A DNA stretch of 64,000 nucleotides from Pseudomonadota bacterium (GCA_009926935.1 RFNZ01000002.1:89473-153472); one strand, 5' to 3'; counted from the first letter of the stretch, positions 18,014-20,441 are shown. Numbers and translations: made by a program. The notes: generated by a model not told the origin, from the sequence alone.

Positions 18014-18619
18014 TCAATGCCTGAAATGGTCCAGCTTCGGGGTCGCCTTGGGCGGGATTCTCATCCCCGCCATGAGCTGGGCTAAATCAGCTGCAGCCTT
18101 TTCGGCTTCTACACCGACAGCTTCTGCGAGTTTAGCCCACTTACCTGTTACAGGCTGATTATCGTAAGAACCGTTCCACGAGTTATTTCCGTAGTGATTT
18201 CCAAATGACCAGATGACCTTAAAATCCCCGCGCTCACGGGAGCCGGAAGTAAGCCTAACCGAATAACGTCTGTCTTTGACACCGCTCACAAGCGAGAGAG
18301 TAAGGCCATTCGCCAGAGTTGCATCCGCTGTAAATTCGGTCGTATACCCTTTTTCGACAAACTGGTGCACCTTCAGATCACGGATAGTCGTATCACCTCG
18401 GATCGCGCCGCCACTGGCCTCTATGAGGGGCTTCAGAATTGCCGCCAGGCCCGCTTCAAGCCTTTGCTGTTTTAAGGCTATATCTGCGTCTTTCGGTGTC
18501 ATGTCATAAACGCGGGGTTCAACAACTGTTACCCCTGCCTTGAGGTCGCCAGCATCTGCAGCCGAGCTTCCAAACACCGTAACAAGTGCAACGAGTACAG
18601 CGGCAGCAGAGCGACGCAT
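18014..18619 (-). CDS. Secreted hypothetical protein
   Basis: 201-aa ORF with an N-terminal signal peptide (MRRSAAAVLVALVTVFGSSAADA). I recognise no domain. It lies between clpP and the DXD paralogs. Confidence 0.55.
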   Translation of the reverse strand: MRRSAAAVLVALVTVFGSSAADAGDLKAGVTVVEPRVYDMTPKDADIALKQQRLEAGLAAILKPLIEASGGAIRGDTTIRDLKVHQFVEKGYTTEFTADATLANGLTLSLVSGVKDRRYSVRLTSGSRERGDFKVIWSFGNHYGNNSWNGSYDNQPVTGKWAKLAEAVGVEAEKAAADLAQLMAGMRIPPKATPKLDHFRH

Positions 18620-18701
18620 TCAAATCCTCATAAAATATCAATTTTAAATTATGTAAACAATTAGCAGCTGGAGCGCGGCCGAGCAACAAAATAAGGTATC
18701 G

Positions 18702-19526
18702 CTAATTGATACCCAACTCCTTAAGCGCCGGATCGGGCTTAAGCGTGCGCCCGACATCAGGCAGGTAGAAATGGGCAAGGTTGGCAAACCTGTCCCTGTA
18801 CCCCGGTAAAACTTTTCTGATATACGCCTCAAGGATCGGATAGCCGCAAAGCCCATGGGTGGCATCCACGCGGGCCTGCCTCAGCCACCAATGCGCAAAA
18901 CGCCTGACGCGACCAAACGATGTATTAAGCCCTATAAGCCCGTTTGGTACGCCGGCCCGCCCAGCCTTGTGCAAGCATATACCGTAAGTATCAAGCGCTC
19001 TCTGCATGCGTGCCCATGAAAATTTCTTGATGTCCATATCGGTATAAATCAGATAACGCCGCTCGGGGTTCGTCCGCATCATGTGATACATGAAAAGCAC
19101 ACGGGCATAATCCGCCCGCACATAAACACTCCCCGGCGCTTCGCGTGTATCCGTATCGCTCGCTAGTTCCCTGAAAATCGGGTCCTGCCGAAACGCAGGC
19201 ACGCCCTCGTAACCCGGTATTTTGGATAAATCTTCAAAGAAGATGTTTTGGGGTTTGGATGGGTCTTTCATACATGCATACGCATAAGACTGAACCCAGA
19301 AAAGGCTTCTCGCATCCAGCTTCTCGTAATCAAGGCCAATATAAAAATCCGCACTTTTAAGGCCGTCGGCCACCGCAACCACATTCTTGATGTACTGTAG
19401 GGCCACACTGCACTCGGGCGTATCCTGCCTAGCGTCGGGCTCGCTTTTATTGATCCAGACATGCATAAAAAGTGGCCTTTTATTGGGCCGCCTTGCTGCA
19501 CGCACATTGAAATCCTGATTAGGCAT
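18702..19526 (-). CDS. DXD-motif glycosyltransferase-like protein (toxin/effector-like), paralog 1
   Basis: 274 aa. The motif order is FMHVWIN ... GSVYVRADYARVLFMYHM ... YLIYTDMDI (DXD). This resembles the xSDxxRxxxL...YxDxD core of Gly_transf_sug and large clostridial toxin GT-A domains. The C-terminus is ELGIN. Confidence 0.5.
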   Translation of the reverse strand: MPNQDFNVRAARRPNKRPLFMHVWINKSEPDARQDTPECSVALQYIKNVVAVADGLKSADFYIGLDYEKLDARSLFWVQSYAYACMKDPSKPQNIFFEDLSKIPGYEGVPAFRQDPIFRELASDTDTREAPGSVYVRADYARVLFMYHMMRTNPERRYLIYTDMDIKKFSWARMQRALDTYGICLHKAGRAGVPNGLIGLNTSFGRVRRFAHWWLRQARVDATHGLCGYPILEAYIRKVLPGYRDRFANLAHFYLPDVGRTLKPDPALKELGIN

Positions 19527-19529
19527 GGC

Positions 19530-20441
19530 TCAGTTAACGCCAAGCGCTCTGAAAAAATTATTATGCGGCATTACAAACGATATCTGTGGCAAAACGCTAA
19601 TCCTGATAGGCAAGCGCTGCATATAGTTCGGATGCATTGCATTCAAAAATTTATCTAACGCTACATCCCCAAGGAAACGGTCTTTAGCCGCATCAACGGA
19701 ATACTTTGCAAGTCTGCCGATATTGAGATCAACAAACGGATGATCGCAATCAATCCCTATATATCCGTGGGATACGCACTCGGTAGTACCAAGGTCGTTA
19801 ATAACAACTCCATAACGTCTCATGACATTCATGGCATTGTTGATGGCCAGATCTGGGCAATCAAGATCGGAATAAAAAATATACTTGGACTGGTCTTTAT
19901 GTTTGGAATGGCAGTGATTGAGTATCAAGACCCTCGCAGCGTCCGCCCTCAGATAAACACTACCGAAATCTGCGCGCGACCGCGTCATGGCAAGGCAATT
20001 CTGGGGCGCAAAAAGCGGATCAGCTGCATATTCTGGGATACTCCGCAGATCACAGATTTCTATGTTCTGGTGCCTGCTGGTCGCATACAGATGTGAGGCA
20101 AGCCAAAAACGCGTTTCAGGGCCAATCAAACCACCATCAACCCAGAACTTGAATTTCGCCTCCGGATATCGGTTTGCATTTTCAATGGCAAAAGCCAGCT
20201 TCTCAAGCGGAATGGAACAGGTGCCAACATGCCTGCGCTGCCACTCGGGCACATCATTGAGCCACATGTAATTGACGATGGGCATACCGTCATTTTCAAA
20301 TAAGCGCAGCTCCACGGACTCAACAGCGGCAGAGCCGGGCACGGAAGCAATTTTTCTGAACGTTCTCCGACGCAGCACTTTCGGGCGCGGCGCCCAGAAG
20401 TGCCTGTTAAATAAATCCAGCAGTGCTGCCCCAAATTTCAT
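19530..20441 (-). CDS. DXD-motif glycosyltransferase-like protein (toxin/effector-like), paralog 2
   Basis: 303 aa with colinear motifs: VNYMWLN ... GSVYLRADAARVLILNH ... YIFYSDLDC ... ALGVN at the C-terminus. Its stop is 3 nt before the paralog 1 ATG. Confidence 0.5.
   Translation of the reverse strand: MKFGAALLDLFNRHFWAPRPKVLRRRTFRKIASVPGSAAVESVELRLFENDGMPIVNYMWLNDVPEWQRRHVGTCSIPLEKLAFAIENANRYPEAKFKFWVDGGLIGPETRFWLASHLYATSRHQNIEICDLRSIPEYAADPLFAPQNCLAMTRSRADFGSVYLRADAARVLILNHCHSKHKDQSKYIFYSDLDCPDLAINNAMNVMRRYGVVINDLGTTECVSHGYIGIDCDHPFVDLNIGRLAKYSVDAAKDRFLGDVALDKFLNAMHPNYMQRLPIRISVLPQISFVMPHNNFFRALGVN

What the first reader, a model, noticed from the sequence alone, without database searches (positions are those of the whole stretch)
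18014..20441. Islet of two tandem toxin-like DXD glycosyltransferase paralogs plus a secreted protein, inserted between tig and clpP
**Seen in the sequence.**
- Two adjacent ORFs of 303 and 274 aa are 3 nt apart and are clear paralogs.
- Their colinear motifs are h-h-h-W-[IL]-N, then IP.Y...P.F, then GSVY[VL]RAD.ARVL, then Y[LI][IF]Y[TS]D[ML]D, and a C-terminal [EA]LG[IV]N.
- They are followed by a signal-peptide protein of unknown function.
- The block lies after the tig terminator hairpin (20492-20518) and before clpP.
- It looks more AT-rich than its flanks by eye; I did not compute this.

**Established knowledge.**
- tig-clpP-clpX-lon-hupB is a widely conserved contiguous block.
- The xSDxxRxxxL...YxDxD arrangement is the nucleotide-sugar site of the Gly_transf_sug family and of the large clostridial toxin / Legionella Lgt and SetA type of GT-A domain.

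**Inference.** These may be horizontally acquired, host-targeting or surface-modifying glycosyltransferase effectors. The motif resemblance is from memory, not from an alignment.
Basis: partly seen in the sequence, partly recalled or inferred. Interest (0 to 1): 0.75.

Follow-up and report, generated by a model that had tools for sequence, protein, structure and literature searches.

The report
Orphan toxin-like glycosyltransferase pair islet
Between two housekeeping genes (tig and clpP), an uncultured alphaproteobacterium carries two diverged copies of a rare, unnamed sugar-transferring enzyme family whose nearest known relatives are bacterial toxins; what the enzymes glycosylate is unknown.

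Summary
On the minus strand lie tig, GT1 (303 aa), GT2 (274 aa, 3 nt later), a signal-peptide ORF (201 aa), then clpP. GT1 and GT2 are true paralogs (25% identity, E=2e-22), and every listed motif is present.

No Pfam, NCBIfam, PHROG or PADLOC model covers them. An exhaustive profile search found only 211 relatives among 1.84 billion cluster representatives.

A 150-sequence AlphaFold model (pLDDT 91) is a GT-A fold. Its best solved match is the Yersinia toxin YeGT. The only profile matches in the PDB, all sub-threshold, are PaTox, YeGT and Legionella SetA. The uracil-stacking Trp, the D-x-x-R pair and Y-x-D-x-D are 93-100% conserved.

The "inserted islet" reading is right, but the insertion is not recent:
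- 72 of 74 other alphaproteobacterial loci have tig next to clpP.
- In the window's own clade the same site holds 0, 1, 2 or 3 family copies.
- Composition is nearly native.

The secreted ORF is a lineage-specific orphan, not a partner. Host-targeting is untested: no secretion signal or secretion system was seen, and the organism's lifestyle is unknown.

Verdict: a new, distant branch of the GT32/GT44-like glycosyltransferases, moderately interesting.

The parts
20534..21913 (-). tig (trigger factor), the upstream flank of the islet
   Evidence: The ORF is. It is 75-77% identical to the tig of clade relatives. Pfam Trigger_N/FKBP_C/Trigger_C hits are on the orthologs.
20493..20518 (-). tig intrinsic terminator hairpin, the left boundary of the insertion
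   Evidence: One search finds 11 pairs (6 GC) with A and T runs on either side. A homologous hairpin (gcggcctta.agggccgc) follows tig at the empty site in L093.
20449..20477 (-). Near-consensus sigma-70 promoter for the GT1-GT2 operon, probably giving a leaderless mRNA
   Evidence: TTTACA-17-TATAAT matches 11 of 12 positions, with an extended -10 TG. It is the only site scoring 10 or more of 12 in 5.3 kb. The -10 ends 7 nt before the GT1 ATG and there is no Shine-Dalgarno sequence. Function is inferred.
19530..20441 (-). GT1, the canonical member of the new GT-A family (303 aa)
   Evidence: Family HMM E=1.8e-69. It keeps 26 of the 27 positions that are at least 75% conserved in the family, including W60, D102, D167, R170, Y190, D192 and D194. 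It has no hydrophobic segment. The word-indexed search found only the sequence itself.
18702..19526 (-). GT2, a divergent paralog (274 aa) of a fast-evolving subclade
   Evidence: BLASTP against GT1 gives E=2e-22. The AlphaFold model has pLDDT 91.4 and a GT-A fold. It keeps W24, D66, D139, R142, Y161, D163 and D165. It has changed 9 other family-conserved positions and has a gap at a tenth (family Asp, GT1 D197), e.g. W64G. Orthologs are 79% and 55% identical, and dN/dS is about 0.08.
18694..18714 (-). Weak terminator-like hairpin overlapping the GT2 stop codon
   Evidence: One search finds 7 pairs followed by TATTTTGTTG. This is a consensus match only.
18014..18619 (-). Lineage-specific orphan ORF with a Sec-type signal peptide (201 aa)
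   Evidence: Hydrophobic residues 5-23 follow MRR. A GAGGA Shine-Dalgarno sequence lies upstream. Only the sequence itself was found among 5.8 billion proteins. There is no Pfam, NCBIfam, PHROG, PADLOC or PDB match. It is absent from the related islets. It has the poorest codon-usage fit in the window, z=-2.2.
17924..18010 (-). Conserved clpP-upstream block, the right boundary of the insertion
   Evidence: It aligns with the clpP-upstream sequence of the empty-site relative L093 (cTTGCGCGGA...GTAACTTT...TGAATCG.AAC).
17273..17923 (-). clpP, the downstream flank, followed directly by lon with no clpX
   Evidence: It is 90-96% identical to the ClpP of clade relatives. lon (14734-17169) starts about 100 bp after clpP ends.

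Best explanation
**The islet**
- The 2.5-kb block is an accessory islet.
- It lies exactly between the tig terminator and the clpP promoter region of an uncultured, small-genome alphaproteobacterium.
- It holds two diverged paralogs of a rare family of about 270-aa soluble enzymes that no curated database covers.

**The enzymes**
- They have the GT-A fold and belong to the retaining, metal-dependent GT32/GT44/GT8-like group.

**Mechanism (inferred from relatives)**
- The Trp at the end of strand 1 (W-[IL]-N) stacks on the uracil of a UDP-sugar.
- The D-x-A-R pair and the first Asp of Y-x-D-x-D hold the ribose and sugar.
- D-x-D binds Mn2+ and the diphosphate.
- One sugar is transferred to an acceptor.

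**Expression (inferred)**
- GT1 and GT2 are transcribed from their own strong promoter as a leaderless, translationally coupled pair.

**The two copies**
- GT1 keeps the family consensus.
- GT2 keeps the catalytic core but has replaced many residues around helix 1 and strand 2.
- I therefore infer that the two copies differ in donor or acceptor.

**History**
- The islet is old within its clade and turns over by tandem duplication and loss, giving 0-3 copies.

**Acceptor (my lean)**
- 0.45: a molecule of the producer's own cell, such as an envelope glycolipid, LPS or a protein.
- 0.25: a protein of another cell (toxin or effector).
- 0.15: a small molecule.

**The secreted ORF**
- It is an unrelated, lineage-specific addition.
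For: **Shown: fold and family**
- The two genes are paralogs.
- The family has 211 representatives with E<=1e-3, typically about 270 aa long.
- The GT2 model has pLDDT 91.4 and pTM 0.89.
- Foldseek against the PDB gives 84 hits at E<=1e-3. Those listed (top 50) are nucleotide-sugar enzymes of the GT-A type, nearly all glycosyltransferases. YeGT is first, followed by XXYLT1, SseK1/3, glycogenin, NleB, Lgt1 and SetA.
- The family profile hits only PaTox, YeGT and SetA in the whole PDB, at E=0.075-0.21. That alignment pairs family D139 and R142 with YeGT D134 and R137.
- The YeGT paper shows those residues plus D150 form the sugar-binding triad, W44 stacks on uracil, and D150/D152 bind Mn2+ (PMC11152714).
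- Conservation in the family is W 98%, D 99%, R 93%, Y 95% and both DxD aspartates 100%.
- dN/dS is about 0.08, so the gene is under purifying selection.

**Shown: the insertion**
- The tig-clpP gap is 60-497 bp in 72 of 74 outgroup loci.
- L093 is an empty site.
- Other clade members carry 1 copy (L005), 2 copies (window, L001) or 3 copies (L004).
- Tandem copies group within genomes, with bootstrap 99, 76 and 71.

**Shown: expression signals and localisation**
- Neither GT has a transmembrane segment or signal peptide.

**Inferred**
- Retaining chemistry, a UDP-sugar donor, the leaderless transcript and the functional split between GT1 and GT2.
Against: **Weak links to solved structures**
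- Sequence links are individually non-significant (E about 0.1).
- Structural similarity is moderate: TM 0.40-0.51, 7-16% identity.
- No residue-level structural superposition could be made.

**Missing features**
- The family motif is W-I-N, not the toxins' W-I-G.
- There is no conserved C-terminal Trp like YeGT W301.

**Signs of drift**
- One GT2-type ortholog (L001) has Cys in place of the uracil-stacking Trp, so some copies may be inactive.

**Nothing identifies the acceptor**
- The 10 genomic contexts share no partner gene.
- No activity has been measured for any member.
Confidence: 0.6

Rival explanations
1. GT1 and GT2 are exported toxin-like effectors. After delivery into a eukaryotic host or a prey cell, they mono-glycosylate a key protein such as a small GTPase, an elongation factor or a death-domain-like target, as YeGT/PaTox, Lgt1, SetA, SseK/NleB or Francisella GdcA do.
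For: - The only PDB sequences reached by the family profile are PaTox, YeGT and SetA.
- The top Foldseek hit is YeGT, and effectors SseK1/3, NleB, Lgt1 and SetA are also on the list.
- The genes are orphans scattered among housekeeping genes, never inside a glycan cluster, across 10 contexts.
- Divergence is fast: GT copies are 27-38% identical where tig is 75% and ClpP 90%.
- Copy number ranges from 0 to 3, with recurrent tandem duplication.
- Carriers with long contigs have small genomes, about 1.8-1.9 Mb.
- Small multi-copy PF04488-type effectors exist, for example GdcA (PMC6650193).
Against: - There is no signal peptide or delivery domain.
- No secretion-system gene lies next to any of the 10 loci.
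- There is no conserved C-terminal loop Trp.
- The PDB over-represents toxins among GT32-like enzymes, so the hit list is biased.
- GT8 enzymes such as glycogenin score equally well.
- The lifestyle of the carriers is unknown. They come from freshwater, marine and mat metagenomes.
- The window encodes ordinary biosynthesis genes: glnA, proline and shikimate pathways, nuo.
Confidence: 0.25
2. They are ordinary envelope glycosyltransferases that add variable sugars to LPS core, lipid A or another surface glycolipid or glycan. Their rapid turnover would reflect phage or grazer pressure on surface structures.
For: - Most bacterial GT-A enzymes serve envelope glycans (established knowledge).
- In the marine relative L090, a tandem pair follows lpxB by 32 nt on the same strand, at the end of the bamA-ompH-lpxD-fabZ-lpxA-lpxI-lpxB cluster.
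- In L087 a GT2 gene lies two genes away.
- In L088 a transpeptidase is adjacent.
- The GT32 family includes glycolipid and mannan enzymes such as Och1 (PMC12312940).
- The window organism makes LPS, since it encodes LptD.
Against: - In 9 of 10 contexts, including this window, no glycan or lipid pathway gene is an operon partner.
- There is no membrane anchor.
- No flippase, polymerase or sugar-nucleotide synthesis genes are nearby.
- The profile does not reach GT8 LPS enzymes or any Pfam polysaccharide glycosyltransferase family.
Confidence: 0.3
3. They make a small-molecule glycoside in the cytoplasm, for example a compatible solute or storage primer, as the soluble retaining GT-A enzymes mannosylglycerate synthase or glycogenin do.
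For: - Glycogenin and mannosylglycerate synthase are among the Foldseek hits (ranks 4-20 and 45).
- The proteins are soluble orphans.
- Two family members sit next to mscL, an osmotic-stress channel.
Against: - No partner phosphatase or sugar-phosphate gene is nearby.
- The divergence is unusually fast and the copy number varies, which is not expected for a metabolic enzyme.
- The mscL adjacency occurs in only 2 of 10 contexts.
Confidence: 0.12
4. One or both copies are decaying or non-catalytic remnants with no present function.
For: - GT2-type proteins depart from the family consensus at 10 of 27 conserved positions, including W64G.
- The L001 ortholog also has W24C.
- GT1 has the lowest GC in the window.
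- One relative lacks the islet altogether.
Against: - Both ORFs are intact and keep all catalytic-core residues.
- GT2 against its 79% ortholog gives dN/dS of about 0.08.
- A near-consensus promoter precedes GT1.
- The deep alignment gives a confident, compact fold.
Confidence: 0.05

Closest known systems
YeGT / YkGT / PaTox-G / Afp18 (small tyrosine-GlcNAc toxin glycosyltransferases, CAZy GT32)
   Same: - They are single-domain GT-A proteins of about 280-300 aa.
- YeGT is the top Foldseek hit (E=3.7e-5), and PaTox and YeGT are the top profile hits.
- They share a Trp at the end of strand 1, a D-x-x-R pair and a DxD motif. Family D139 and R142 align to YeGT D134 and R137.
   Different: - Identity is only 12-13% and TM 0.43-0.45, and the sequence E-values are not significant.
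- The motif is W-I-N rather than W-I-G.
- The spacer between D-x-x-R and DxD is about 8 residues longer.
- The motif is DxD, not DxDD, and there is no conserved C-terminal Trp.
- There is no known delivery route or target, and no Pfam Gly_transf_sug hit.
Legionella effector glycosyltransferases SetA and Lgt1 (GT-A domains of Dot/Icm substrates)
   Same: - SetA is reached by the family profile over the helix-1/strand-2 segment (...A..nP....iIWvD).
- Both are Foldseek hits (ranks 44 and 48).
- Their genes are scattered, orphan genes.
   Different: - They are much larger multidomain proteins (about 450-650 aa) with localisation domains.
- They have a known type IV secretion route and eukaryotic targets.
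- None of this is seen here.
Francisella GdcA (small multi-copy PF04488 DXD glycosyltransferase that blocks NF-kB)
   Same: It is a small DXD glycosyltransferase present in several genomic copies and not inside a glycan cluster (PMC6650193).
   Different: - GdcA is a recognisable pfam04488 member, whereas the window proteins are not.
- GdcA copies are identical in sequence, whereas GT1 and GT2 are 25% identical.
- GdcA comes from a known intracellular pathogen.
Och1 / Pfam Gly_transf_sug (GT32) and the large clostridial toxins (GT44)
   Same: - They share the same order of nucleotide-sugar site motifs (W ... D-x-x-R ... Y-x-D-x-D) and retaining GT-A architecture.
   Different: - No member of the family hits PF04488 or PF12919, even at E<=10.
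- Och1 is a membrane-anchored Golgi mannosyltransferase.
- The clostridial toxins carry a roughly 540-aa glucosyltransferase domain with a helical membrane-localisation subdomain.
GT8 enzymes (glycogenin, XXYLT1) and the SseK/NleB arginine-GlcNAc effectors
   Same: They have comparable Foldseek scores (E=4.5e-5 to 2e-4, TM 0.38-0.48) and a retaining DxD GT-A core.
   Different: - There is no sequence-level signal at all. PF01501 is not hit.
- The C-terminal architecture differs.

Membership tests
GT-A fold nucleotide-sugar glycosyltransferases | A single Rossmann-like alpha/beta/alpha domain of the GT-A type | tested here: met
   The AlphaFold model of GT2 has pLDDT 91.4 and pTM 0.89. Foldseek gives 84 PDB hits and 74 BFVD hits at E<=1e-3. 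The listed top 50 PDB hits are nucleotide-sugar enzymes of the GT-A type, nearly all glycosyltransferases. The named BFVD hits are glycosyltransferases or nucleotide-diphospho-sugar transferases, and many others are uncharacterised.
GT-A fold nucleotide-sugar glycosyltransferases | A DxD metal-binding motif following a central beta strand | tested here: met
   Y-x-D-x-D is present in both paralogs. Both aspartates are 100% conserved in 146 aligned family members. The motif sits right after strand E158-162 in the model.
GT-A fold nucleotide-sugar glycosyltransferases | Nucleotide-sugar hydrolysis or transfer activity | not testable with these tools
   This needs recombinant protein and UDP- or GDP-sugar assays.
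CAZy GT32 / Pfam Gly_transf_sug (PF04488) | A match to the curated family model | tested here: not met
   GT1, GT2 and all 150 aligned family members give no PF04488 hit, even at E<=10. The only recurrent weak hit is GT34, in 4 of 150 with best E=0.018.
CAZy GT32 / Pfam Gly_transf_sug (PF04488) | The sugar-binding triad D-x-x-R plus the first Asp of DxD | tested here: met
   The HMM alignment puts family D139 and R142 on YeGT chain residues D120 and R123, which are D134 and R137 in the paper's numbering. Conservation is D 99% and R 93%.
CAZy GT32 / Pfam Gly_transf_sug (PF04488) | A uracil-stacking Trp in a W-I-G motif at the end of strand 1 | tested here: inconclusive
   Trp is 98% conserved at the end of strand E19-24. 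However, the motif is W-[IL]-N, and the local HMM alignments to YeGT start after this position, so equivalence is positional only.
CAZy GT32 / Pfam Gly_transf_sug (PF04488) | Significant sequence similarity to solved members | tested here: inconclusive
   The best E-values are 0.075 (PaTox) and 0.11 (YeGT). These are the only PDB hits together with SetA, but they are below significance.
Bacterial toxin/effector glycosyltransferases (GT44 clostridial toxins, small GT32 toxins, Lgt/SetA) | A match to the TcdA_TcdB catalytic-domain model (PF12919) | tested here: not met
   No hit in any of the 150 members.
Bacterial toxin/effector glycosyltransferases (GT44 clostridial toxins, small GT32 toxins, Lgt/SetA) | A conserved Trp in the C-terminal flexible loop (YeGT W301; TcdB W520 from memory) | tested here: not met
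   No Trp reaches 75% conservation in the C-terminal third of the family. Only G228 and a Pro are conserved there.
Bacterial toxin/effector glycosyltransferases (GT44 clostridial toxins, small GT32 toxins, Lgt/SetA) | A delivery route: a secretion signal, a translocation domain or a linked secretion system | tested here: not met
   There is no signal peptide or hydrophobic segment and no extra domain. No secretion genes appear in 10 genomic contexts. Cryptic type I, III, IV or VI secretion signals cannot be excluded.
Bacterial toxin/effector glycosyltransferases (GT44 clostridial toxins, small GT32 toxins, Lgt/SetA) | Glycosylation of a protein of another cell | not testable with these tools
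   This needs intoxication or expression assays and target labelling.
CAZy GT8 (glycogenin, LgtC/RfaJ type; PF01501) | A match to the curated family model | tested here: not met
   No PF01501 hit. Only fold-level similarity was found.

The most novel reading that the evidence does not exclude
GT1, GT2 and their roughly 200 relatives are a previously unrecognised family of minimal toxin-type glycosyltransferase effectors. Uncultured small-genome Alphaproteobacteria, possibly predators or protist associates, would deliver them into other cells. The recurrent tandem duplication and the 0-3 copy flux at tig-clpP would then record an arms race over targets.
Probability: 0.25. Interest if true: 0.7.

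Novelty: new variant of a known kind. Interest (0 to 1): 0.45.

Why it matters
**If the enzymology holds**
- This adds a compact (about 270 aa) branch to the retaining GT-A enzymes.
- That group includes Och1, the clostridial toxins and the small tyrosine-glycosylating toxins.
- The branch is not covered by Pfam or NCBIfam and was reachable only by exhaustive profile search and a deep-alignment structure model.

**What it offers**
- It gives a minimal scaffold for studying donor and acceptor specificity.
- The natural pair of a canonical copy (GT1) and a remodelled copy (GT2) is a ready comparison.
- The 0-3 copy series at one fixed chromosomal site is a clean example of gene birth and death next to essential genes.

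**If the targets are in other cells**
- It would point to an unrecognised interaction lifestyle in abundant uncultured Alphaproteobacteria.

**If not**
- It is an ordinary accessory glycosyltransferase family that needs a name.

Tried and rejected
**Searches that found nothing**
- Single-sequence searches against Pfam, NCBIfam, PADLOC, PHROGs and the PDB gave nothing for any of the three proteins.
- The word-indexed homolog search found only the query itself for GT1 and for the secreted ORF, and three close relatives for GT2.
- A literature search for the relatives' accession numbers found nothing.

**Structure work that fell short**
- The first AlphaFold run with 4 sequences was useless (pLDDT 48). 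It was replaced by the 150-sequence run.

**Locus scans that failed or returned little**
- Scanning GTDB genomes with glycosyltransferase peptide patterns found no relative.
- I used tig as the anchor instead. The metagenome scan returned only 2 clade loci.

**Ideas rejected**
- A mobile-element origin. There are no flanking direct repeats, integrase or adjacent tRNA; the nearest, tRNA-Leu, is upstream of tig.
- A defence-system reading. There is no PADLOC hit.
- A functional link to tig, clpP or proteolysis. Family members elsewhere sit in unrelated contexts.
- An obligate GT-plus-secreted-protein module. The secreted ORF occurs in this genome only.
- An ancient fixed A/B gene pair. Tandem copies group within genomes, not across them.

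**Not determined**
- The organism's taxonomy below Alphaproteobacteria. Source names say only 'Proteobacteria bacterium' or 'Rhodospirillales bacterium'.

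
Full report
**1. What is in the sequence**

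All genes in the region are on the minus strand.
- tig is at 20534-21913.
- GT1 is at 19530-20441 (303 aa).
- GT2 is at 18702-19526 (274 aa). GT1's TGA stop and GT2's ATG are 3 nt apart.
- A 201-aa ORF is at 18014-18619.
- clpP is at 17273-17923, lon at 14734-17169 and hupB at 14294-14572.

GT1 and GT2 are genuine paralogs. BLASTP gives 25% identity over 269 columns with E=2e-22. Short DNA repeats at a spacing of 831-846 nt are the remains of this paralogy.

The 201-aa ORF has an MRR start, a hydrophobic stretch at residues 5-23 and an Ala-rich cleavage region. GT1 and GT2 have no hydrophobic segment at all.

The tig terminator hairpin is at 20493-20518.

The by-eye AT-richness holds only for GT1.
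- GT1 has GC 0.480, z=-2.2, the lowest of 54 ORFs.
- GT2 (0.520) and the secreted ORF (0.531) match the window background of 0.537.
- The secreted ORF has the poorest codon-usage fit in the window (z=-2.2).

**2. Family and fold**

None of the three proteins matches Pfam, NCBIfam, PADLOC, PHROGs or, individually, the PDB.

The word-indexed search of 5.8 billion proteins gave very little.
- GT1 returned only itself. It comes from a 795-kb contig of a MAG named 'Proteobacteria bacterium', locus tag EBQ96_01950.
- GT2 returned three relatives at 99%, 79% and 55% identity.

An exhaustive HMMER search with a four-sequence profile went further. It found 211 proteins at E<=1e-3 among 1.84 billion cluster representatives, and 118 at E<=1e-10. 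The listed hits are typically about 270 aa long.

None of 150 aligned members hits a glycosyltransferase Pfam family at E<0.01. At E<=10 the only recurrent weak hit is GT34, in 4 of 150.

With that alignment, AlphaFold gives a confident model of GT2, with pLDDT 91.4 and pTM 0.89. The four-sequence attempt had given pLDDT 48.

Foldseek against the PDB returns 84 hits at E<=1e-3.
- The listed top 50 are nucleotide-sugar enzymes of the GT-A type, nearly all glycosyltransferases.
- First is the Yersinia toxin YeGT (E=3.7e-5, TM 0.45).
- Next come XXYLT1, SseK1/3, glycogenin, NleB, a Legionella glycosyltransferase, Lgt1 and SetA.
- The viral structure library gives only generic GT-A hits.

Independently, the family profile searched against all PDB sequences hits only four distinct sequences.
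- These are PaTox (E=0.075), YeGT (0.11) and two SetA constructs (0.21).
- Each is below significance on its own.
- All are from one group of enzymes and align to the homologous segment.

The alignment pairs family D139 and R142 (GT2 numbering) with YeGT D134 and R137. The YeGT paper identifies four roles (PMC11152714).
- D134, R137 and D150 form the sugar-binding triad.
- W44 of the W-I-G motif stacks on uracil.
- D150 and D152 are the Mn2+-binding DxD.
- W301 is a needed C-terminal loop residue.

Conservation in the family is as follows.
- The strand-1 Trp is 98% conserved.
- D139 is 99%, R142 93% and Y161 95% conserved.
- Both DxD aspartates are 100% conserved.
- There is no conserved C-terminal Trp.
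- The motif is W-[IL]-N, not W-I-G.

In short, the fold and the nucleotide-sugar site are well supported. Kinship with the GT32/GT44 toxin-type branch is the best available placement. Membership of any curated family was tested and not met.

**3. The two copies differ**

- GT1 keeps 26 of the 27 positions that are at least 75% conserved in the family.
- GT2 and its orthologs keep the catalytic core. They have changed N21M, Y22H, P42A, N52V, Y56L, P57K, W64G and P263K, among others.
- The L001 ortholog even has Cys in place of the strand-1 Trp.
- GT2 is nevertheless under purifying selection. dN/dS is about 0.08 against its 79% ortholog, with dS near saturation.
- I infer a change of donor or acceptor preference rather than decay.

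**4. Expression signals**

- A near-perfect sigma-70 promoter lies at 20477-20449: TTTACA-17-TATAAT, matching 11 of 12 positions, with an extended -10 TG.
- Its -10 box ends 7 nt before the GT1 ATG, and there is no Shine-Dalgarno sequence. This suggests a leaderless transcript (inference).
- GT2 is likely translationally coupled to GT1, given the 3-nt gap.
- A weak hairpin overlaps the GT2 stop codon.
- The secreted ORF has its own GAGGA ribosome-binding site.

**5. Is it an islet?**

I used tig as an anchor and fetched 80 loci from GTDB genomes.
- In 72 of 74 loci from other alphaproteobacterial groups that carry both genes, clpP begins 60-497 bp after tig.
- 56 of 56 have a ClpX-signature ORF between clpP and lon.
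- The family HMM hits none of them.
- The two exceptions hold unrelated genes. L021 has a GT2-family glycosyltransferase, a methyltransferase and an unknown protein. L063 has an enoyl-CoA hydratase.

In the window's own clade, tig is 75-85% and ClpP 90-96% identical to the window's, and clpX is missing from the block. There the same site holds variable numbers of family copies.
- Two copies in L001, in the opposite order and with no secreted ORF.
- At least one copy directly after tig in L002.
- Three tandem copies in CP060260.1, 'Rhodospirillales bacterium', 1.94 Mb.
- One copy in L005/L006.
- None in L093.

L093 shows the empty site. The tig terminator is followed within about 27 nt by the clpP-upstream block, which is conserved in the window at about 17924-18010.

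The insertion is therefore about 2.5 kb, from roughly 18012 to 20490. It is accessory, but it is old and keeps changing. There are no flanking repeats, integrase or adjacent tRNA. The glycosyltransferase copies are only 27-38% identical between genomes whose tig is 75% identical.

**6. The family elsewhere**

Other members sit in unrelated housekeeping neighbourhoods, as singletons or tandem pairs.
- L087: a pair between an HD-domain gene and hemH.
- L088: a single copy after gatB.
- L089: a single copy near response regulators.
- L090: a pair directly after lpxB, in a marine MAG.
- L091 and L096: single copies next to mscL.
- L094: a single copy next to aroC.
- L095: a single copy next to coaD and ispG.

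No partner gene recurs. No secretion system or glycan cluster is linked. Tandem copies group within genomes, with bootstrap 99, 76 and 71, so duplication is recurrent. Named sources say only Alphaproteobacteria or Pseudomonadota MAGs.

**7. The secreted ORF**

- It has no relative among 5.8 billion proteins.
- It has no family or structure match.
- It is absent from every related islet.
- It is a lineage-specific addition of unknown function, not a conserved partner.

**8. Interpretation**

Shown:
- GT1 and GT2 are paralogs of a rare, uncurated family.
- The family has a GT-A fold with an intact nucleotide-sugar and metal site.
- The islet is accessory and clade-restricted, and its copy number varies.

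Inferred:
- Retaining transfer from a UDP-sugar.
- A leaderless bicistronic operon.
- Divergent specificity of the two copies.

Open: the acceptor. The three readings compare as follows.

| Reading | Probability | Main support | Main weakness |
|---|---|---|---|
| Toxin or effector | about 0.25 | Nearest relatives, orphan locations, fast turnover, small carrier genomes | No delivery evidence; lifestyle unknown; PDB biased towards toxins |
| Envelope glycoconjugate | about 0.3 | Base rates; the lpxB-adjacent pair in L090 | No cluster context |
| Small-molecule glycoside | about 0.12 | Soluble orphan enzymes; two members next to mscL | Adjacency in only 2 of 10 contexts |

**9. Novelty and score**

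- This is a new, distant variant of a known kind, the GT32/GT44-like retaining GT-A enzymes. It is not a new principle.
- The 'horizontally acquired effector' framing is only partly supported.
- Interest is 0.45.

Noticed in passing
window 14734-17923 (clpP-lon junction at 17170-17272): clpX is missing from the otherwise universal tig-clpP-clpX-lon-hupB block. lon follows clpP after about 100 bp here and in all clade relatives (L001, L003-L006, L093). By contrast, 56 of 56 outgroup loci have a ClpX-signature ORF there. Whether clpX was moved or lost was not determined. It is not in this 64-kb window by ORF inspection.
   Followed up: partly
L093 6357-6515 (Ga0209066_10007150): This clade member (tig 77%, ClpP 96% identical) has the empty site. 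The tig terminator is followed directly by the conserved clpP-upstream block, with no glycosyltransferase genes. This fixes the insertion boundaries.
   Followed up: yes
window 20441-20477 (minus strand): The promoter TTTACA-17-TATAAT has an extended -10 TG and ends 7 nt before the GT1 start codon, with no Shine-Dalgarno sequence. This makes it a candidate leaderless mRNA.
   Followed up: partly
L001 292-1116: The GT2-type ortholog in this relative has Cys instead of the 98%-conserved strand-1 Trp (HVCLN against HVWIN). This could mean loss of nucleotide binding or a sequencing error.
   Followed up: no
L090 4809-7665 (marine MAG, GCA_001370015.1): A tandem pair of family members (271 and 253 aa) follows lpxB by 32 nt at the end of the bamA-ompH-lpxD-fabZ-lpxA-lpxI-lpxB cluster. 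This is the only context hinting at a lipid A or LPS link.
   Followed up: partly
L021 4767-8896 and L063 8396-9266: Two unrelated alphaproteobacteria also carry insertions between tig and clpP. One holds an unknown 638-aa protein, a GT2-family glycosyltransferase and a methyltransferase. The other holds an enoyl-CoA hydratase. The junction therefore tolerates insertions more generally.
   Followed up: partly
window 21983-22068 and 23072-23147: tRNA-Leu(tag) lies immediately upstream of tig, and tRNA-His lies between the carbohydrate-kinase gene and glnA. Neither borders the islet.
   Followed up: yes
window 48197-50671: An 824-aa ORF has only sub-threshold Pfam hits (PcfJ-like, E=3e-5, below the gathering score). 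Otherwise it is uncharacterised.
   Followed up: no
window 55559-56197, 46789-47529, 26313-27464: Three further ORFs have no Pfam match. Two of them are low in GC (0.487 and 0.490), similar to GT1, so GT1's composition is not unique in the window.
   Followed up: no
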